DNA of 7,908 bases from a virus (IMGVR_UViG_2563366990_000018); one strand, 5' to 3'. Positions 714-7,908 are shown, counted from the first letter of the stretch. Translations and numbers: made by a program. The notes: generated by a model not told the origin, from the letters alone.

Positions 714-2441
714 TTATAATGGAAAATACTCAAACCCCGAAGCTCCTGACGACACATACTCACCCACGCTGACTGTACGCCACTGAGAACCATCAAATGT
801 CACCTGAAGCGGCCTGTAAGATACCCTGTCAATAAGGGTTTTGTTTCCGTCGTTGTAACCGCCAATCCCCGTAATCATTGCACCAATATCCAAATCCACT
901 GCCCATGTAGTGCTGTCTGTTTGCGGCGCATAAGTCTGTTTATTACCCAGCCTGATACCCACAACCCGGCTCTTCCCGTCTGATGTCCCGGGCGGCCCCA
1001 TCGGCCCGGTTTCTCCACGCTCACCTCTGGGACCGGGGTCGCCTTTCTCCCCTTTCGGTCCCTGCGCTCCCCGCGGACCAGCAGGACCTGTTGCTCCCGT
1101 TTCACCTTTCGGACCCTGTGCTCCGGGGTCGCCTTTCTCTCCTTTCGGACCGGGAACACCACCTCCTGCTGCAGCCTCTTCTGCCTTTGTTTTCGCTTCA
1201 TTTGCCACATCCATTGCCGCCTTCACGGCCTTCGGCGTGGCTGCCTTTGTTTCGTCATTACTGCCAGTATCACTGCTTAACTGCACCACACCTTTCTGCG
1301 TCGTGCTGGCATCCCGCTGGCTGACCGTATCCGGTTTGTTTTTTGTGCTGTAATCCACCCGCCAGTGGAAATACTGTGTGTCGCCGTAAACCGTACAGGT
1401 ACAGACCGTGCCATTAATAAACCCCGTTGCACCGTATTCGCCAATGGTGACCCGGACTATGGCAGCCTCATACGTTCCCATCACCTCAATGACACAGCCA
1501 CCCAGATTGAGTTTTCCCGGTCCGACATCCGTGATGACTTTATTGAGTACCGCAGGCAGTGATGCCTTCATCATCCAGTAAGGCTGGTCAAATGCCCCTT
1601 TTTCTTTCAGCCAGGCGACAAACTCGCTCGTGGTCCATTCACCGGCCCCCGTATGAATGTCCCGCCCGTATACTCTGGCTGCTCCCACGGTGTTCAGAAA
1701 CTTCACCTTATCCGGGATATCGTCACCGTTTTTCGCTTTCTCCAGGCATCCGTCCGCTTTGTCCATTGCCGCTTTCACCGCTTTCGGGGTGGCTGCCTTC
1801 GTTTCATCATCACTGTCCGTTGCGCTGCTTAACTGCACAATTCCCTTCTGTGCCGTCGTCGCATCCGGTCCTCCCGGCTCGCCTTTTTCGCCCTTCTCTC
1901 CCCGTTCACCTTTCACACCCTGAAGCCCCTGTGGTCCTGTCTCACCACGCTCACCCTTTGGCCCCCGCTCGCCGGTATCGCCTTTTGGCCCGGGAATACC
2001 CTGCGGCCCGGTGTCTCCCTTATCCCCCTTCGGTCCCCGCGCATTCTCTGCCCGTTTCTTCGCTTCCTCTGCACTGGCCGCTGACGCTTCTGCACGTTTC
2101 AGGATTTCCGCTGCCACCGCTTCCAGCTCTGCAAGGGCTTTCGGGTAATACTGTGCGTCTTCCAGGTCCATCAGAAATTTATTCAGCGTTCCCGGTGCAG
2201 AATCCGCCTTCACCAGAATGTCACCCACATATGACGGCGCGTACCCTTCCGTGTTCAGCGTCACCCGGTACAACCCCGGCTCAACATCCATACTGTAACT
2301 GCCGGTTTCCCCCGGCTGACCATACGCCACCGTGGTGACAATCACCGTCTCCGTTGTGCGGCGCGCTTTCAGCTCTATCGTGCATCCCGGTACCGCTGTT
2401 CCCGTACCATCCTTCAGCACACCCGATATTCTGACTGTCAT
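714..2441 (-). CDS. stf: Side tail fibre protein with collagen-like Gly-X-Y tracts, 575 aa
   Basis: The N-terminus ([14 protein letters not shown]...CTIELKARR) closely resembles the lambda Stf N-terminus as I remember it. Two collagen-like Gly-X-Y tracts (aa 136-192 and 426-485) and two copies of the phage tail-fibre repeat motif (QKG[IV][23 protein letters not shown], aa 195-227 and 379-411). ATG at 2439-2441 preceded by a GGGGGA Shine-Dalgarno. Confidence 0.85.
987..1166 (-). repeat. Collagen-like Gly-X-Y triplet-repeat coding tract 2 of stf, with an internal imperfect ~32-bp direct repeat (1033-1064 and 1125-1156)
   Basis: Translation is an uninterrupted G-X-Y run ([10 protein letters not shown]...). 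The two 32-bp DNA copies are visibly near-identical. Confidence 0.8.
1211..1314 (-). repeat. Copy 2 of a ~104-bp imperfect direct repeat inside stf (copy 1 at 1763-1866), encoding the duplicated tail-fibre repeat motif
   Basis: Hand alignment of 1211-1314 against 1763-1866 gives about 80% identity. Confidence 0.7.
1763..1866 (-). repeat. Copy 1 of the ~104-bp imperfect direct repeat inside stf
   Basis: See copy 2 at 1211-1314. Confidence 0.7.
1866..2036 (-). repeat. Collagen-like Gly-X-Y triplet-repeat coding tract 1 of stf
   Basis: Translation [57 protein letters not shown]. Confidence 0.8.
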
Positions 2442-2454
2442 GGATTTCCCCCAT

Positions 2455-2488
2455 AAAAAAACCGCAGTACCGGTTTCCCGGCCTGCGG
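2455..2488 (-). terminator. Rho-independent terminator on the minus strand, ending the putative Hok-like transcript 13 nt before the stf start codon
   Basis: Stem ccgcag(ta)ccgg / ccgg(c)ctgcgg (2462-2488) with a tttc loop, followed on the minus strand by a run of 7 T (plus-strand A-run 2455-2461). Confidence 0.55.
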
Positions 2489-2517
2489 TAAAATTTGTGG
2501 TTTGTTGGTGTTAAAAC

Positions 2518-2540
2518 GGTGCCATCCGGCTGACCACCCT
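2518..2540 (-). other. 3' element of a long-range complementary pair (fbi-like), partner at 2849-2872
   Basis: Plus strand 2518-2533 reads GGTGCC-atcc-GGCTGA. The minus strand of 2849-2872 reads GGTGCC-ttt-GGCTGA, so in a minus-strand transcript the two ends could form two 6-bp helices around a small internal loop. Confidence 0.35.
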
Positions 2541-2551
2541 CAGCAACCGGT

Positions 2552-2574
2552 CGGCGGGGGATATTCTCCCCCGC
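2552..2574. other. Perfect 9-bp GC-rich hairpin (ggcggggga-tattc-tcccccgcc), 10 nt past the Hok-like stop codon
   Basis: Exact inverted repeat in the sequence. No clean T-tract on the minus strand; a weak one (acggtttctt) on the plus strand. Probably mRNA 3' structure. Confidence 0.4.
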
Positions 2575-2583
2575 CACGGTTTC

Positions 2584-2724
2584 TTACTGCTTACACTGTA
2601 AGAACGCCGCAATCTCCGCGCCCGCTATCCGGAACCGGAACTCGCACAGTGAACTGTGGGTGATCCAGATAATGAGCACTACCGTGATACAAATCACGGT
2701 GGTTTTTAACGGTTTTTGCGACAT
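2584..2724 (-). CDS. Hok/Gef-family-like type I toxin, 46-aa small hydrophobic peptide (MSQKPLKTTVICITVVLIIWITHSSLCEFRFRIAGAEIAAFLQCKQ)
   Basis: Hand translation of the minus strand, too short to appear in the ORF track. ATG at 2722-2724 with an AAGGAG Shine-Dalgarno 8 nt upstream, TAA stop at 2584-2586. Hydrophobic N-terminal helix followed by SLCEFRFR...EIAAF, which matches the Hok-family signature as I remember it (Hok: [21 protein letters not shown]). Confidence 0.55.
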   Translation of the reverse strand: MSQKPLKTTVICITVVLIIWITHSSLCEFRFRIAGAEIAAFLQCKQ

Positions 2725-2800
2725 AACGCTTGCTCCTTTTACGGAGAGGCGCTAACCTTCTTCTTGCTGAAGGAAGAACGTCAGGCCTCGGGTTAAACAT
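2591..2800 (-). CDS. mok-like overlapping reading frame (69 codons) spanning the Hok-like ORF in another frame
   Basis: ORF-track entry. It starts 76 nt upstream of the Hok-like start and ends 7 nt before the Hok-like stop, the same geometry as mok/hok on plasmid R1. No sequence similarity is claimed; it could be a chance ORF. Confidence 0.25.
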   Translation of the reverse strand: MFNPRPDVLPSARRRLAPLRKRSKRYVAKTVKNHRDLYHGSAHYLDHPQFTVRVPVPDSGRGDCGVLTV

Positions 2801-2848
2801 GAATGTTTGTCCGGGGCCTTCGTCTTTCCGGCCTTCAGGTGTTCCCTC

Positions 2849-2872
2849 CGGCCATCAGCCAAAGGCACCCGC
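2849..2872 (-). other. 5' element of the long-range complementary pair (tac-like), partner at 2518-2540
   Basis: See partner feature. Confidence 0.35.
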
Positions 2873-2876
2873 ACAT

Positions 2877-2905
2877 AATGTACGGTTTTTGTATCCTTCC
2901 GGCAA
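2877..2905 (-). promoter_or_regulatory. Putative sigma-70 promoter for the Hok-like mRNA (TTGCCG - 17 nt - TACATT)
   Basis: Hexamers read on the minus strand (plus coordinates 2900-2905 and 2877-2882) with a 17-nt spacer. The predicted start near 2870 would place the 5' end at the complementary element 2849-2872 and give an mRNA of about 415 nt ending at the 2455-2488 terminator. Confidence 0.3.
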
Positions 2906-2921
2906 TCCCGGGGCGCGATGT

Positions 2922-5900
2922 TCAGCGGATACTGATCCCCGCGCTGTTTTTCTTCACCACTATCGCCTGAAGGTTACTGATACGTGAACTGCCAAAACTC
3001 CCGTTCTGACGCCGTGAACTTACGGTAAAACTCAGGGTGATATGACCACCTCCGGCTGGCATATCGATGATCCCGCTGAAAATTCCCGGCTCTGTCACTG
3101 ACCTGCCGGAATAAATCCGGCGTCCGTTCTGATCAACATGCAGGAAGCACTCTGTCCAGATGTCATTACTGGTGCGGGATTCCTGTTTTGACCCGACATA
3201 GATTATCGGCGGGATTATAATCTGCCGGTCAAAGCTGTGATCGTCATACACCGTCAGCGTTCGTGTACCGTTCGCAAGGTAACTACCATCCACCGGAAAA
3301 GCCACCCCTGCACATTTCACAAGATCACCAATAATGTTCTCCGCTTTCAGCGTGCCATTTATCGTACAGTTCTCCGCTATCACGACATTATTCAGCGTGC
3401 CCGAGTTCGCACTGATATGTCCGCTGATGTCAGCATTGCGGGCCGTCAGCCTGCCCTCCGGCGTCAGGGAGAACGTCGGGGGATTGCCGGACGAGGTGAT
3501 GCTCACTGCAAACAGTCGCTTCAGGAACACGTCGTTCATGAACAGCTGATTCCCCTGCGCCACAAACAGCGGCGTGGTGTTGCCGTTCTCCGGGTTAATC
3601 ATCGCGATACGGTCCGCCTGCAGCAGTATATTGCTCAGGGGCTGGCCATCAGCATCCTCAATCCCCGCACCAATACCGGCAACATACGGAATGCCGTTTT
3701 TCGTTTTCTGCACCTTCAGCATGTACAGCGCAGCCAGGTCGTTATTTGTGTCTGCCTGCACCCGCTGTATCTGCTGTATGGTGGCACTCTGGTCTTCCAG
3801 GGTTTTACTGACCGTCTGCGTGATTTCATTGCGGGTTTCTGTGATGGTGGTCTTCATCTCCGCCATCTCATCATCAAGCTGGCTGTTATCAATCAGCTCC
3901 CACATCCCCTGTGCCAGATGTGTCTTCCCGATTTCTCCTCTGAAAAAGTCCAGATACCCTTCTGCATCATTGCTGGCCCGGCCACTGGCTTCCACAAACG
4001 CAGATTTCCCCACCAGATTGACGCTGCGCACATAAAACCAGAAATCCTTCCCCGGCTTAATGTGCGGGCCGGAGACACTCCACTGGCGGCCTGTCCCCAG
4101 ATAACGGGCAGAGGTTTCCACCTGAGATGTGTCTGCGATTTTTGCCTCCGAAAACCAGAACTCAAACTGTACCGTCGGGTCATACACCGTAAGATGCGGG
4201 ACCGCCGTTATCTGATAATACCCCGGCGTCAGTTCAATGCTGGCCGGTGCTGCCGGTGCGTTAATCCGGAACGTGGTGGTGGCAGGTTCGCCCTGCTGGC
4301 CGTAGCTGTTTATCGCCCTGACCGTCAGGGTGTATTCCCCCAGAGGCAGGCCACTGAAACGGTGCTCCGTGTCGGCAGTGATGGCGGTGGTCACCAGGCG
4401 GCTGTTTTCACCACTGCCACTGGTCAGGCGCAGACTGAAGCGCACGCCCTTCACCACCCGCGGCGTGTCCCATTTCGCCAGCGCCAGATACTGGCCGTCT
4501 GAGGCACTCACCTCCACCGTGAGGTGCTGCACAGCCGGCGGGATGACGCTGTTCAGTGAACCGGACATCGGCTCAAAGCGGGCCCCGTTATCCACGATGG
4601 CTTCTTTTTCCGGTACGTGCTGCACTGCCGTGATGGCAAAGGTGCCGTCCGTGTTTTCCCGGATGGAAACACAGCGGAACAGGCGACGACGCAGTGACGG
4701 CAGGGAGAGTCCCCACACACCGTATGCCTCCACGCCATCCGGCAGGGCGCTGACCTGTATCCGGTCCGGGGCGGGGTGTGCAGTGATGTCCACGCGCACC
4801 GGCTTACCGCTGCCGTTAATCAGGTTCACCGTCGATGTACCTGTCTCCGGCAGTGTCACCTCACGGTCCAGCGTCAGTGTGCGGCTGGCGGCATCGATGG
4901 ACAGGATACGTCCGCCGGTCAGGGTCCCGGCATAGTCGTTATCACAGATTTCAATGATGTCACCGGGCGTGTGCCGCAGCCCCTGTGACCCGAGCGTGAA
5001 ATCCACCGTCTGCGTTTCCAGCAGTTCTGTCTTTATTACCCACAGTCCGGCACGGTGGGCCTGACCGCGGCTGGTACAGCCGAACGCGTCCATCTTCAGC
5101 AGGTTGCGCCCGTAGCGCAGGATGGCGTCCGGGTCTTCCACCAGTTCCGTGGAAGTCTGCCAGCCGTTCTGCGGGTCGGTGTAATTCACCTCCACCGCCG
5201 TGTGCCGGTCCTTCAGGGCACTGAAGCTGTAGCGGAACCCCACGCCGTTATCATCCACCACCACATCGCTGTTGGTGTAGGGCCACACCACATCCGACGG
5301 ACGGTCCTGAACGAACGTCAGCGTCTGGCCGTTCCATACCGGCATACAGCGCATCGCCGAGCAGAAATCCCCCAGAACATCCCAGACCTTACGCTGCTGT
5401 GACAGGTACGCATTGAAGGTCATCCGCGGCTCTGTTCCCCCGAAACCATCCGGGACCGTCTGGTCACAGTACTGCCCGATGGCATACAGTGCCCACTTGT
5501 CCACATCCGCGGCCCCCAGGCGTTTTCCCATCCCGTAGCGCGGGTGGGTCAGCATGTCCCACAGGCACCAGGCCGGGTTATTGCTGTATGCCGGTTTCAG
5601 ACTGCCGTCCCAGATACCGCTGTAGGTGCGTTTTTCCGGGTCATAGTTTGACGGCACCTGAATGATGCGACCACGGATATGGTAGTTCACCGTCAGCTGC
5701 TGGCCACCAAACTGCTCCGCATCCACCTGCAGCCCCACAATGGCCGTGTTCGGGTAGCACTGTTTCACATCGATGATTTCGGTGTATGACGACCACAGCG
5801 TTCTGTTCTGCAGCTGGTCCGTGGTGCTGTCCGCCGTCTCCCTGACCATCCGGATGTTAAAGGGGCGCTCAGGGAGATTATTCAGAATCACCGACGTCAG

Positions 5901-6389
5901 GTACTGCGAGGTGGTCTTGCCGTTAATGGTGACATCCTTCTCCGTCACCCAGTGCCCGTTACGCTCAAGCTGAATCAGCAGGCGGACAGAAGAGGGATTA
6001 CGGTCACCCTTTGAGGTGGTCTCCACCAGTGACTGCACCCCGAAGGTGACCCGCAGACGGTCAATGTTCGCTGACGTGATGGTGCGCGTCACCGGCTTTG
6101 CCTTCGTCACCTCCACGCCCAGTGCGGTTTCTGCCCCGGAGGACTCAAAGCCTTCCGGCGGTGTCTGCTCCTGCTCCCCGGCACGCCAGACGGCGGTCAC
6201 ACCGTGTATCACGGGATTACCGTCCGTGTCCGTCAGCGGGGTTTTGTTCACCAGAATACTCTGCAGTCCCTTCACCGGACCTTCCACCGGTCCCTCACCA
6301 ATGGCATCAATCACGCTCATCATCTGCGTGGATTTGAGATTGTCCTTCGCCTCACGCGGTGTGTGCCCCTTGCCGCCCCCTTTACCCAC
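2922..6389 (-). CDS. J: Tail tip attachment / host specificity protein J (central tail fibre), 1155 aa
   Basis: Collinear similarity to lambda gpJ as I recall it, from the N-terminus ([22 protein letters not shown]...) to the C-terminus (...[11 protein letters not shown]); the middle region (around [12 protein letters not shown]...) is divergent. GTG start at 6387-6389 with a GGAGAGGGGGA Shine-Dalgarno; upstream in-frame stop at 6465-6467; TGA stop at 2922-2924. Confidence 0.95.
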
Positions 6390-6430
6390 TCTGTCCCCCT
6401 CTCCTGTCTGATGTCTGAATCTGTTTATGC

Positions 6431-6462
6431 CAGAAAACGACAGGCACCCCGGAGGGTGCCTG
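6431..6462 (-). terminator. Intrinsic terminator-like hairpin on the minus strand, about 50 nt upstream of the J start
   Basis: Perfect 9-bp stem caggcaccc / gggtgcctg with a 4-nt loop (6441-6462), followed on the minus strand by TCGTTTTCTG. Confidence 0.45.
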
Positions 6463-6476
6463 TGTCATGACGGAAT

Positions 6477-6513
6477 AAAATTTCTGAAATTCTTCACATT
6501 TCCGGCAAATTCC
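6477..6513. repeat. Box A: 37-bp direct repeat (aaaatttctgaaattcttcacatttccggcaaattcc), copy 1
   Basis: 34 of 37 positions identical to box B at 6656-6692, including a 22-nt perfect block; the copies are 179 bp apart. Confidence 0.85.
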
Positions 6514-6597
6514 CGTGGAGGAAACCTTGCCGGATGGGTAGATTACCTGCGGTCAATAAAAGCAATTAATCGCAACTCCTTAAGGTGACTATTCGTT

Positions 6598-6641
6598 CCT
6601 CCCGTTAATATCCAGGTGTATTGCGGGAGCGTTTTTTATTT
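6598..6641 (+). terminator. Weak terminator-like structure on the plus strand at the end of unit A
   Basis: cctcccg ... cgggag stem (6598-6629) with possible inner aata/tatt pairing, followed by GTTTTTTATTT. An alternative hairpin gcgggagc / gctccgc (6623-6650) lies around the T-tract. Confidence 0.3.
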
Positions 6642-6655
6642 CAGCTCCGCAACAG

Positions 6656-6692
6656 AAAATTTCTGAAATTCTTCACACTTCCGGCAATTGCC
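6656..6692. repeat. Box B: 37-bp direct repeat, copy 2
   Basis: See box A. Confidence 0.85.
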
Positions 6693-6772
6693 TGTAGCCG
6701 CAATAATGACGCTGCGTTACTGTTCTTCTGCCCAAAAAAATAACTCCATAACGTTAATCTTCATCGTTATTT

Positions 6773-6807
6773 CCCGCAGCTCCGCTAACTCTGCGGGATT
6801 TTTTTTT
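6773..6807 (+). terminator. Rho-independent terminator on the plus strand, antisense to the late operon; its T-tract runs up to the gene I stop codon
   Basis: 7-bp stem cccgcag / ctgcggg (6773-6797) with an 11-nt loop, followed by a run of 9 T (6799-6807) and then ATTTTT. Confidence 0.5.
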
Positions 6808-6811
6808 ATTT

Positions 6812-7492
6812 TTATCCCCGCCCGATAACCACCACTTTCCCGTCTCCGCCCTCATCACGGGTGCTGATGTCCTGGGATATCCGTCGTGAACCAACCAGCA
6901 TTTCACCATAAGGCACCGGCATAGGGTTACCCTGGGCAATCATGTTGTCCAGTGACGAAAAATACGTGTTCTGTTTACCGTTATCCGTACTTTTGTACTC
7001 CGGCGTCTTTGCCTTCGGGGCCAGCATCTGGGCCACACCACCCAGTATCATGCTGACACCCAGTGAGAACAGCATCGTGGTGGCAGTCAGCCCTCCGGCA
7101 CTCAGGGCTGCGCCCCACAACGCCATCGTTGCGCCGCCGGTGAAGAAAGAGCCCACGATGGCTGCTACCCCCAGCACCACCTGAAAAACACCATTTCCCC
7201 CGGCTCCGGCCAGTCGCGGTACAATGTGGATGACCGCTCCCTCACCCAGTTGTTCGTGAAGACGGGCGTACACTGCCTCCGGTGCGGTATCCTCACCGGC
7301 AATACGTATCTGGTACCAGCCTTCGTTCATCTGACCGCGGAATCCCGGCACCTGCAGCGACAGGGCACGGATGGCCTCCGCTGCCGTGTTCACATACAGG
7401 CTGATGCGGCGACCAAATCGTTGTAAATCCCCGTGAAGGCAGATGCGGACCAGTGGCGGTGACGCCAGACAGAATGCGTTCGTCGTTGCCAT
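6812..7492 (-). CDS. I: Tail assembly protein I, 226 aa
   Basis: Strong similarity to lambda gpI as I recall it (ARICLYGDLQRFGRRI..., GAVIHIVPR, KQNTYFSSLDNM). Its 5' end overlaps the 3' end of K by 103 nt, as in lambda. Confidence 0.9.
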   Translation of the reverse strand: MATTNAFCLASPPLVRICLHGDLQRFGRRISLYVNTAAEAIRALSLQVPGFRGQMNEGWYQIRIAGEDTAPEAVYARLHEQLGEGAVIHIVPRLAGAGGNGVFQVVLGVAAIVGSFFTGGATMALWGAALSAGGLTATTMLFSLGVSMILGGVAQMLAPKAKTPEYKSTDNGKQNTYFSSLDNMIAQGNPMPVPYGEMLVGSRRISQDISTRDEGGDGKVVVIGRG

Positions 7493-7908
7493 TTTTCAGA
7501 ATACCTCTCCCGTTTACTCAGTTGTTCAGGTATATGGTGAAGCAGTTCACCGTTGCCACAGTAAATGGCGGCATGATTCGGCACCGATGAACCAAAGCAG
7601 CACAGCAGGATATCGCCTGCCTGTGCACAGGACGGAGACACCCGGTAAAAGCCGTTTTCCGCCAGGTTGTCCAGGTACAGGTTCTGACCGTTGCGCCACC
7701 AGTCATCCTCACGCACAAAATCCGGCAGCGTTATCCCCGCCAGATGGTATGCATCCCGGAACAGGGTGTAACAGTCCGTCACACCGTGTTCAAAGCGCCG
7801 TCCGGTCAGGTGCGGCACACAGCGGAACCGGTGAATTTCACCCCGGCAGACCAGCCACCAGGGCAGGGCACTCTTTATCTGCAGCCGCCGGTCCGCCTCG
7901 CTCAGCCA
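7390..7908 (-). CDS. K: Tail assembly protein K, C-terminal NlpC/P60-like part; 5' end lies beyond the window
   Basis: The reading frame is open to the window edge: hand translation of 7819-7908 gives WLSEADRRLQIKSALPWWLVCRGEIHRFRC, so the GTG at 7816-7818 used by the ORF track is internal. Matches lambda gpK as I recall it (RRFEHGVTDCYTLFRDAYH ... NHAAIYCG). Confidence 0.9.
   Translation of the reverse strand, partial: WLSEADRRLQIKSALPWWLVCRGEIHRFRCVPHLTGRRFEHGVTDCYTLFRDAYHLAGITLPDFVREDDWWRNGQNLYLDNLAENGFYRVSPSCAQAGDILLCCFGSSVPNHAAIYCGNGELLHHIPEQLSKRERYSEKWQRRTHSVWRHRHWSASAFTGIYNDLVAASACM

What the first reader, a model, noticed from the sequence alone, without database searches (positions are those of the whole stretch)
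2442..2921. A hok/mok-like type I toxin cassette sits where lambda carries lom, between J and stf
The 480-bp J-stf spacer contains no lom-like gene. It has a 46-aa ORF (2584-2724, minus strand) with a strong AAGGAG Shine-Dalgarno, a hydrophobic N-terminal helix and a C-terminal SLCEFRFR...EIAAF motif resembling the Hok/Gef family. A 69-codon frame (2591-2800) overlaps it in mok-like fashion. The cassette has its own promoter-like hexamers (2877-2905), complementary ends, and an intrinsic terminator (2455-2488). This would be a self-contained moron inside the late tail operon, a plausible prophage-stabilisation or abortive-infection module. I do not know whether Hok homologues have been described at this position in lambdoid tail operons.
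Basis: partly seen in the sequence, partly recalled or inferred. Interest (0 to 1): 0.75.

Follow-up and report, generated by a model that had tools for sequence, protein, structure and literature searches.

The report
Hok/Sok toxin-antitoxin cassette in prophage
The gap between the tail-tip gene J and the side tail-fibre gene of this E. coli prophage holds a complete hok/sok-type toxin-antitoxin cassette, which public genome annotation already labels as Hok/Gef, so it is a real but ordinary feature.

Summary
The 46-aa ORF (2584-2724, minus strand) matches Pfam Hok/Gef (43.5 bits, cutoff 22) and PHROG 251 over its full length. Its leader (2870-2713) matches Rfam RF01794 above the gathering score.

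Across eight homologous loci from four genera, the 5' end can pair either with the 3' end (tac/fbi, with a G-C to A-U covariation) or with an internal box (tac/ucb). This is the hok mRNA switch. The antisense promoter (TTGCTC-17-TAACCT) is homologous to the sokW -10 that has been mutated experimentally.

The "mok-like" frame is not conserved. One-base indels in 96-99% identical relatives cut it to 10-31 codons, and five of six distant homologues lack the ATG.

The same J-3'/cassette/stf-5' arrangement occurs in 101 of 5,426 complete E. coli genomes, where PGAP calls the protein "Hok/Gef family protein". Relatives sit next to lom in Stx phages and after ogr in P2-like prophages. The studied hokW-sokW is a different locus. 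Twenty-nine genomes carry a 330-bp deletion remnant.

Verdict: already known kind, low interest.

The parts
2877..2905 (-). hok promoter: -35 TTGCCG (2905-2900), 17-nt spacer, -10 TACATT (2882-2877); transcription start about G2870
   Evidence: Read from the sequence. A TAnAnT and TTGCC pattern is conserved 7-8 nt upstream of GGGTGCC in 9 loci from 4 genera. It scores 8/12 to consensus, below the scan threshold.
2455..2870 (-). Full-length hok mRNA, about 416 nt
   Evidence: The 5' end corresponds to Rfam model position 1. The fold is -193.8 kcal/mol, z = -9.3. The 8-sequence alignment keeps the architecture.
2854..2869 (-). tac (5' translational activator element)
   Evidence: Pairs with fbi in the full-length fold and with ucb in the truncated fold. 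GGGUGCCUU is invariant in 8/8 sequences.
2813..2822 (-). ucb-like box CGAAGGCCCC, the alternative partner of tac
   Evidence: Truncated-mRNA fold. The helix is 85% paired across 8 sequences and its core is invariant.
2764..2819 (-). Sok target region: stem-loop 2819-2783 and a hairpin whose loop CUUCAGCAA (2772-2764) carries a YUNR-type UUCA
   Evidence: Folds. Covarying pairs at columns 101/115, 102/114 and 103/113.
2591..2800 (-). mok-like 69-codon frame; probably only a non-conserved leader uORF
   Evidence: Translation. It becomes 31, 20 and 10 codons in L001, L017 and phage 1720a-02, and the ATG is absent in 5 of 6 distant homologues. No family hit.
2733..2748 (-). Anti-SD CUCUCC (2748-2743) and hok SD AAGGAG (2738-2733) in one hairpin
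   Evidence: Helix 8 is 94% paired in 8 sequences. It is reduced to 3 bp in the truncated fold.
2584..2724 (-). hok: 46-aa Hok/Gef-family membrane toxin
   Evidence: Pfam PF01848, 43.5 bits. PHROG 251, 76.9 bits. dN/dS 0.18-0.58 against homologues, with a hydrophobic helix at residues 8-22.
2553..2575 (-). GC-rich stem-loop just after the hok stop; likely the protective 3' end of the processed mRNA
   Evidence: Found. Conserved, with both-sided changes at columns 311/339, 312/338, 318/332 and 319/331. The R1 analogue is described in PMC9841398.
2518..2534 (-). fbi (fold-back inhibitory element)
   Evidence: Pairs with tac. The helix is 88% paired, with G-C and A-U split 4:4 at column 13/363.
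2455..2489 (-). Intrinsic terminator of hok mRNA: bulged hairpin plus T7, ending 13 nt before the stf ATG
   Evidence: Fold -21.6 kcal/mol, z = -4.3. Retained in the deletion remnant.
2730..2758 (+). Sok promoter: -35 TTGCTC (2730-2735), 17-nt spacer, -10 TAACCT (2753-2758)
   Evidence: AGGTTA is invariant in 8/8 sequences. The geometry and hexamer match the sokW -10 that Takada et al. mutated.
2765..2828 (+). Predicted Sok antisense RNA, about 63 nt
   Evidence: Fold -29.9 kcal/mol, z = -4.1: a 5' tail plus a terminator-like hairpin at 2784-2818. The ends are inferred, not mapped.
2851..2856 (-). GATGGC direct repeat, copy 1 (copy 2 at 2526-2521); the ends of the 330-bp deletion seen in other prophages

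Best explanation
The spacer is an intact hok/sok-family type I toxin-antitoxin cassette. It is a moron inserted between J and stf, and it points the same way as the late operon.

Shown here:
- a Hok/Gef peptide under purifying selection;
- a leader that matches the hok/sok RNA family;
- a conserved weak promoter and a terminator;
- a 5' end that can pair with either the 3' end (fbi) or an internal box (ucb);
- an antisense promoter homologous to the validated sokW -10.

Inferred from R1 hok/sok and hokW-sokW:
1. In the lysogen, a stable mRNA of about 416 nt is made. It is closed by tac/fbi pairing, with the hok SD held by an anti-SD.
2. Slow 3' trimming back to the stem-loop at 2575-2553 removes fbi. 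tac then pairs with ucb, which exposes the Sok target loop and loosens the SD hairpin.
3. The short-lived Sok RNA of about 63 nt pairs with the leader and triggers decay.
4. When Sok supply stops, Hok is made. Supply could stop through loss of the DNA, host transcription shut-off by an infecting phage, or head-on late transcription after induction.
5. Hok inserts in the inner membrane through residues 8-24 and collapses the membrane potential.

The likeliest payoff is retention of the prophage or this region, with abortive infection as a by-product. It may also help lysis on induction.
For: - Protein and RNA family matches: Pfam PF01848 43.5 bits; PHROG 251 full length; Rfam RF01794 63.7 bits against a gathering score of 59, also found in all 7 related loci.
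- mRNA structure: the fold pairs 5' with 3', z = -9.3. The RNAalifold consensus keeps the end-pairing, and 21 pairs show both-sided changes. The tac/fbi helix is 88% paired with a 4:4 split of G-C and A-U. Whole-structure covariation exceeds all 500 shuffles and all slid controls. The alternative tac/ucb helix is 85% paired.
- Promoters: the hok promoter is conserved in 9 loci. The Sok -10 TAACCT is invariant and homologous to the mutated sokW -10.
- Selection on the peptide: dN/dS 0.18-0.58.
- Public annotation: PGAP calls the protein Hok/Gef in E. coli genomes.
- Mechanism sources: PMC9841398 and PMC8621323.
Against: - There is no expression or toxicity data for this locus or its subfamily.
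- In R1, mok translation is mandatory for Hok synthesis. The mok frame is not conserved here.
- NCBIfam HokA and Hok models score below their cutoffs.
- Both promoters are weak by consensus, and the scan found none.
- Clean deletions of the cassette exist in 29 genomes, so its loss is survivable.
- The structure tests use only 8 sequences, and the tested structures came from one of them.
Confidence: 0.85

Rival explanations
1. The cassette is a silent relic. It is recognisably hok/sok but translationally dead, as most chromosomal hok loci of E. coli K-12 are (my recollection of the literature). The reason would be that the mok leader frame needed for Hok translation has decayed in this subfamily.
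For: - The mok frame is broken or lacks an ATG in 7 of 8 compared loci and in 99%-identical relatives.
- mok translation is essential in R1.
- The cassette can be deleted.
Against: - The Hok ORF is intact in 8/8 loci with dN/dS 0.18-0.58.
- It has its own strong SD, AAGGAG.
- The promoter, tac, ucb, fbi and Sok -10 are all conserved across four genera. That is not expected of a dead locus.
Confidence: 0.12
2. The cassette's main role is in the lytic cycle rather than in lysogen maintenance. Q-antiterminated late transcription from J runs through hok and collides with the Sok promoter. Hok is then made on induction and speeds lysis and release, as reported for hokW-sokW of Sp5.
For: - hok is co-oriented with J and stf here, and with its upstream neighbours in Stx and P2-like phages.
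- In Sp5, sokW RNA disappears and HokW appears on RecA-dependent induction, and phage yield halves without the locus.
Against: - hokW is a different locus, only 41% identical over 34 residues and 13 kb away in the same phage.
- HokW appeared about 1 h before the late protein R, which does not fit a trigger based on late read-through.
- Nothing was tested for this subfamily.
Confidence: 0.3
3. The ORF is a chance ORF in a structured intergenic region whose real role is only to terminate or space J and stf transcription.
For: The spacer does contain a terminator and stable hairpins.
Against: - E-values of 1e-11 to 1e-21 against three independent profile libraries.
- The peptide is conserved in Salmonella, Serratia and Yersinia.
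Confidence: 0.01

Closest known systems
hok/sok of plasmid R1 (Pfam PF01848, Rfam RF01794)
   Same: - Small Hok peptide with an N-terminal membrane helix and an LCE.R motif.
- Leader RNA family.
- tac/fbi end-pairing and the alternative tac/ucb pairing.
- Stem-loop after the stop codon, then fbi, then the terminator.
- Antisense promoter overlapping the hok SD region, and an antisense RNA of about 60 nt.
   Different: - 46 aa rather than 52 aa, with an AAFLQCK tail that carries a second Cys.
- A perfect SD of its own.
- No conserved mok frame.
- Sits in a prophage late operon rather than on a plasmid.
Unstudied second hok locus of 933W/Sp5-type Stx phages (next to lom; labelled 'MokW-like host killing', PHROG 251)
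   Same: - 77% DNA identity over 378 nt and 65% protein identity.
- Same 46-aa length.
- Same orientation relative to the late genes.
- Same lom neighbourhood.
   Different: - It lies downstream of an intact lom in a short-tailed phage.
- The mok-position codon is ACG.
- The Sok-target patch differs.
hokW-sokW of Sakai prophage 5 (Takada et al. 2021, PMC8621323)
   Same: - A prophage-borne hok/sok system.
- Identical Sok -10 hexamer and geometry.
- It is experimentally a type I TA that is partly dependent on RNase III and Hfq.
   Different: - A different locus: 51 aa, 41% identity over 34 residues, with an in-frame 70-aa extension, about 13 kb from the lom-adjacent copy.
HokA of E. coli K-12 (NCBIfam NF007290)
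   Same: It is the best-scoring NCBIfam model for this peptide.
   Different: The score is 38 bits against a cutoff of 89, so this is not an orthologue.
Lambda lom moron
   Same: The same slot between J and stf. Like lom in lambda (my recollection), it is a self-contained accessory gene inside the late operon.
   Different: There is no sequence or functional relation. lom encodes an outer-membrane protein of about 200 aa.

Membership tests
Hok/Gef protein family (PF01848) | Profile HMM match above the curated cutoff | tested here: met
   43.5 bits against a cutoff of 22, E 2.4e-11, residues 10-44 on profile positions 8-42 of 42.
Hok/Gef protein family (PF01848) | Peptide of about 50 aa with one N-terminal hydrophobic helix and a polar C-terminal part carrying a conserved Cys | tested here: met
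   46 aa. Kyte-Doolittle mean is 2.5 over residues 8-22. C27 is invariant in 10 homologues.
Hok/Gef protein family (PF01848) | Kills or depolarises cells when expressed | not testable with these tools
   This needs inducible expression.
HokA equivalog / Hok subfamily (NCBIfam NF007290, NF007279) | Score above the curated cutoff | tested here: not met
   38.2 bits against 89, and 37.2 against 73. It is a distinct subfamily.
PHROG 251 (MokW-like host killing, moron category) | Full-length profile match | tested here: met
   76.9 bits, E 1.8e-21, residues 1-46 on profile positions 2-49 of 50.
hok/sok type I TA locus (R1 paradigm) | Leader RNA matches RF01794 at or above the gathering score | tested here: met
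   63.7 bits against 59, full model positions 1-157, window 2870-2713.
hok/sok type I TA locus (R1 paradigm) | 5'-3' end pairing (tac/fbi) closing the full-length mRNA | tested here: met
   Present in the MFE fold and the alifold consensus. 16 pairs, 88% paired, with one pair split 4:4 between G-C and A-U.
hok/sok type I TA locus (R1 paradigm) | Alternative tac/ucb pairing after 3' truncation | tested here: met
   Predicted fold. 12 pairs, 85% paired, 7 invariant. This rests on prediction and conservation only.
hok/sok type I TA locus (R1 paradigm) | Antisense Sok gene with its own promoter, overlapping the leader | tested here: inconclusive
   TTGCTC-17-TAACCT plus a hairpin are present. The hexamer is invariant and homologous to the mutated sokW -10. 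There is no transcript evidence.
hok/sok type I TA locus (R1 paradigm) | Overlapping mok frame whose translation is needed for hok translation | tested here: inconclusive
   The window has a 69-codon frame in the R1-like +1 relation to hok. That frame is not conserved in close or distant relatives.
hok/sok type I TA locus (R1 paradigm) | Post-segregational killing or phage exclusion phenotype | not testable with these tools
   This needs genetics.
hokW-sokW of Sp5 | Same locus or orthologue | tested here: not met
   hokW lies at 57.8 kb of AP000363, while the relative of this cassette lies at 44.5 kb. Protein identity is 41% over 34 residues.
Lambda Lom (Ail/Lom) | Outer-membrane protein gene of about 200 aa between J and stf | tested here: not met
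   No ORF over 100 aa lies within the spacer.

The most novel reading that the evidence does not exclude
This Hok subfamily (46 aa, AAFLQCK tail, PHROG 251) may work without a mok leader.

- The tac/fbi to tac/ucb switch would gate the hok SD directly through an anti-SD hairpin.
- Sok would act about 25-100 nt upstream of the ribosome-binding site.
- Two short paired patches (2821-2826 and 2760-2779) form Sok's 5' and 3' tails. They would be swapped between otherwise 99%-identical copies, so that the several copies in one genome do not cross-protect each other.
Probability: 0.35. Interest if true: 0.4.

Novelty: already known. Interest (0 to 1): 0.2.

Why it matters
The practical value is mostly for annotation.

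- The spacer is a toxin-antitoxin moron, not empty DNA. Its RNA parts (Sok, tac, fbi, ucb) are not annotated anywhere, and phage record KF030445 still calls the gene hypothetical.
- The label "MokW-like" invites confusion with the studied hokW, which is a different locus.
- For type I TA biology, the subfamily offers a natural test of whether mok coupling is dispensable.
- The allelic patches offer a natural test of how Sok specificity is kept separate among up to 11 related matches in one genome.
- For phage biology, it adds a case of a killer gene embedded in, and co-oriented with, a late tail operon.

Tried and rejected
- The genome-contig scan with the Hok alignment matched 346 stretches, but tblastn confirmed none because the query is too short. 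I used exact-protein look-ups instead.
- I first took the 77%-identical Stx-phage match to be hokW-sokW. Primer sequences in PMC8621323 and a BLAST of one of them showed that hokW lies 13 kb away.
- The consensus promoter/terminator scan found neither promoter nor the bulged terminator. Conservation and folding were used instead.
- PADLOC gave no hit.
- The NCBIfam Hok models scored below their cutoffs.
- The 69-aa mok-frame product has no Pfam, NCBIfam or PHROG hit.
- E. coli G8 looked at first like an empty J-stf site. It is a deletion remnant of the cassette.
- Tandem Repeats Finder found nothing in the I-J gap.
- Three literature searches found no paper describing hok between J and stf.

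Full report
**Context.** All long ORFs in the window lie on the minus strand and form the distal end of a lambdoid tail operon:
- an NlpC/P60 K-like gene (7390-7818);
- I (6812-7492);
- J (2922-6389, six J-specific Pfam domains);
- a side tail fibre with phage_tail_N, collagen and fibre repeats (714-2441);
- a DUF4376 protein (1-672).

The whole window is about 97% identical to prophages in several complete E. coli genomes. The spacer 2442-2921 holds no ORF over 100 aa, so it has no lom.

**The observation.**
- ORF 2584-2724(-) encodes a 46-aa peptide, preceded by AAGGAG at 2738-2733.
- It matches Pfam Hok/Gef at 43.5 bits against a cutoff of 22, and PHROG 251 ("MokW-like host killing", moron category) over its full length at 76.9 bits.
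- NCBIfam HokA and Hok models are the best hits but fall below their cutoffs, so it belongs to a separate subfamily.
- PADLOC gives no hit.
- Residues 8-22 form a strongly hydrophobic segment.
- Rfam RF01794 matches 2870-2713 on the hok strand at 63.7 bits, above the gathering score of 59. The match runs from the mRNA 5' end to just past the hok start codon.

**Anatomy.**
- *hok promoter.* It reads TTGCCG (2905-2900), a 17-nt spacer, TACATT (2882-2877), then 6 nt to G2870. It is weak by consensus, and the scan missed it. The hexamers are conserved in nine loci from Escherichia, Salmonella, Serratia and Yersinia.
- *Full-length fold.* RNA 2870 to 2450 folds at -193.8 kcal/mol (z = -9.3), with nt 2-17 (2869-2854) paired to 2534-2518.
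- *Terminator.* A bulged hairpin at 2489-2461 followed by seven T ends 13 nt before the stf ATG.
- *Truncated fold.* Without the 3' 90 nt, the 5' end pairs instead with CGAAGGCCCC (2822-2813). The SD/anti-SD hairpin (2748-2733) shrinks from nine pairs to three. A hairpin appears with the loop CUUCAGCAA (2772-2764).
- *Sok, plus strand.* TTGCTC (2730-2735), a 17-nt spacer and TAACCT (2753-2758) precede an RNA of about 63 nt with a 5' tail and a terminator-like hairpin.

**Comparative test.** I aligned the cassette with seven relatives:
- phage 1720a-02;
- the lom-adjacent locus of Stx phage 75/02;
- two Salmonella loci;
- one Serratia locus;
- one metagenomic locus;
- one Yersinia locus.

All seven carry an RF01794-type leader. 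The results were:
- RNAalifold recovers the 5'-3' end pairing, and 21 of its pairs keep pairing through changes on both sides.
- For the full-length structure, the tac/fbi helix is 88% paired, with a 4:4 split of G-C and A-U at one pair.
- Covariation for the whole structure exceeds all 500 shuffles and every slid control.
- The alternative tac/ucb helix is 85% paired with an invariant core.

So the 5' end is complementary to two partners in every sequence. That is the defining logic of the hok mRNA switch as summarised in PMC9841398. These structures were derived from the window sequence and tested on only eight sequences, so the support is good but not exhaustive.

**Sok promoter.** The complement of TAACCT (AGGTTA) is invariant in 8/8 sequences. 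In hokW-sokW, the primers used to build the "pro-less" mutant replace exactly this hexamer, and it sits at the same distance from the hok SD. That mutation relieved Sok repression. This is the best available evidence that the predicted antisense promoter is real. Expression at this locus is untested.

**The mok claim.**
- The window does have a 69-codon frame starting at ATG2800, in the same +1 relation to hok as R1 mok.
- A 99.2%-identical E. coli copy has one extra T at 2727, which cuts the frame to 31 codons.
- Another copy ends it after 20 codons, at a UAA just before the SD.
- Phage 1720a-02 ends it after 10 codons.
- Five of six more distant homologues have CTG or ACG in place of the ATG.
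- An in-frame TAG, invariant in 8/8 sequences, rules out an N-terminal extension of Hok.

In contrast, the hok ORF is intact everywhere, with dN/dS of 0.18-0.58. Either this subfamily does not need mok coupling, and its perfect SD makes that plausible, or many copies are silent.

**Allelic patches.** Most cassette differences between the window and its close relatives fall in two short patches, 2821-2826 and 2760-2779:
- 18 of 21 differences against 1720a-02;
- 11 of 13 against L017.

The two patches pair with each other in the mRNA. They correspond to the 5' and 3' tails of Sok. This fits exchange or selection at the recognition region, but the sample is only four sequences.

**Distribution.**
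- The spacer is found at 80% coverage or more in 119 of 5,426 complete E. coli genomes, and 101 of them also have both flanks. PGAP names the protein "Hok/Gef family protein" (WP_000078852.1).
- Phage 1720a-02 carries it as "hypothetical".
- Related 46-aa genes lie downstream of lom in 933W/Sp5-type Stx phages, downstream of ogr in P2-like prophages of E. coli and Serratia, and at prophage ends in Salmonella and Yersinia.
- The cassette occurs with different J alleles.

**Correction on hokW.** The experimentally studied hokW (51 aa) maps to 57.8 kb of VT2-Sakai. The relative of our cassette maps to 44.5 kb of the same phage. The two proteins share 41% identity over 34 residues. Stx phages therefore carry two hok loci, and ours resembles the unstudied one (65% protein identity).

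**Deletion remnant.** E. coli G8 has a 184-nt J-stf spacer. It consists of the hok promoter, the first 16 nt of the mRNA, the fbi tail and the terminator. The join is at the 6-bp repeat GATGGC, which in the window occurs at 2856-2851 and 2526-2521. This remnant is present in 29 genomes, some of which also carry an intact copy. Two things follow. The terminator belongs to the cassette. And the cassette can be lost, perhaps under the cover of a second Sok; that last point is my inference.

**Mechanism and role.** By homology, the cassette should behave as R1 hok/sok does:
1. a closed, stable mRNA is made;
2. slow 3' trimming opens it;
3. the unstable antisense neutralises the open form;
4. killing follows when Sok transcription stops.

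Its co-orientation with J and stf means that antiterminated late transcription would run head-on into the Sok promoter. That could link Hok release to induction, as seen for hokW. However, HokW appeared before the late protein R, so this link remains an inference.

**Verdict.** This is a genuine, well-formed hok/sok cassette that is already recognised by standard annotation. Interest is low. The modestly novel points are the non-conserved mok frame, the variable recognition patches and the deletion remnant.

Noticed in passing
window 6390-6811 (minus strand), the I-J intergenic gap: In lambda, by my recollection, I and J are adjacent. Here the gap is 420 nt. It contains a conserved unannotated element: TTGCCGGAA.TGTGAAGAATTTCAGAAATTTT followed by a strong hairpin plus a T run at 6462-6430 (fold -27 kcal/mol, z = -5.2). 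The layout looks like a small-RNA gene. The 96-nt core is in 719 of 5,426 E. coli genomes, with up to 9 copies each. The window has an extra 179-nt insert bounded by a second copy of the 40-nt repeat (6516-6477 and 6695-6656), which is absent from close relatives. There is no Rfam hit. It might relate to the prophage Pas sRNAs (PasB is said to lie among structural genes), but I could not check this.
   Followed up: partly
L015 4301-4484 (E. coli G8) and 28 other genomes: This J-stf spacer is a 330-bp deletion remnant of the hok cassette. It keeps the promoter, the first 16 nt, the fbi tail and the terminator, joined at a GA(T/C)GGC repeat. Some genomes hold both a remnant and an intact copy.
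   Followed up: yes
AP000363 44.5 kb and 57.8 kb; L003 4070-4210; L018 3118-3442: 933W/Sp5-type Stx phages carry two separate hok loci. The one next to lom is labelled 'MokW-like host killing' or 'hypothetical', and it is not the hokW studied by Takada et al. The studied hokW has an in-frame 70-aa upstream extension (orf74, 'gef homolog').
   Followed up: partly
window 2760-2779 and 2821-2826: Two short patches account for most differences between otherwise 96-99% identical cassettes. They pair with each other in the mRNA and form the tails of Sok. This may reflect exchange or selection for Sok/hok specificity. Only four alleles were compared.
   Followed up: partly
window 714-2441 and 1-672; L001 4169-5320: The side tail fibre combines a phage_tail_N domain, collagen triple-helix repeats and fibre repeats. 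It is followed by a DUF4376 protein. In related prophages a YadA-like adhesin gene lies further downstream.
   Followed up: no
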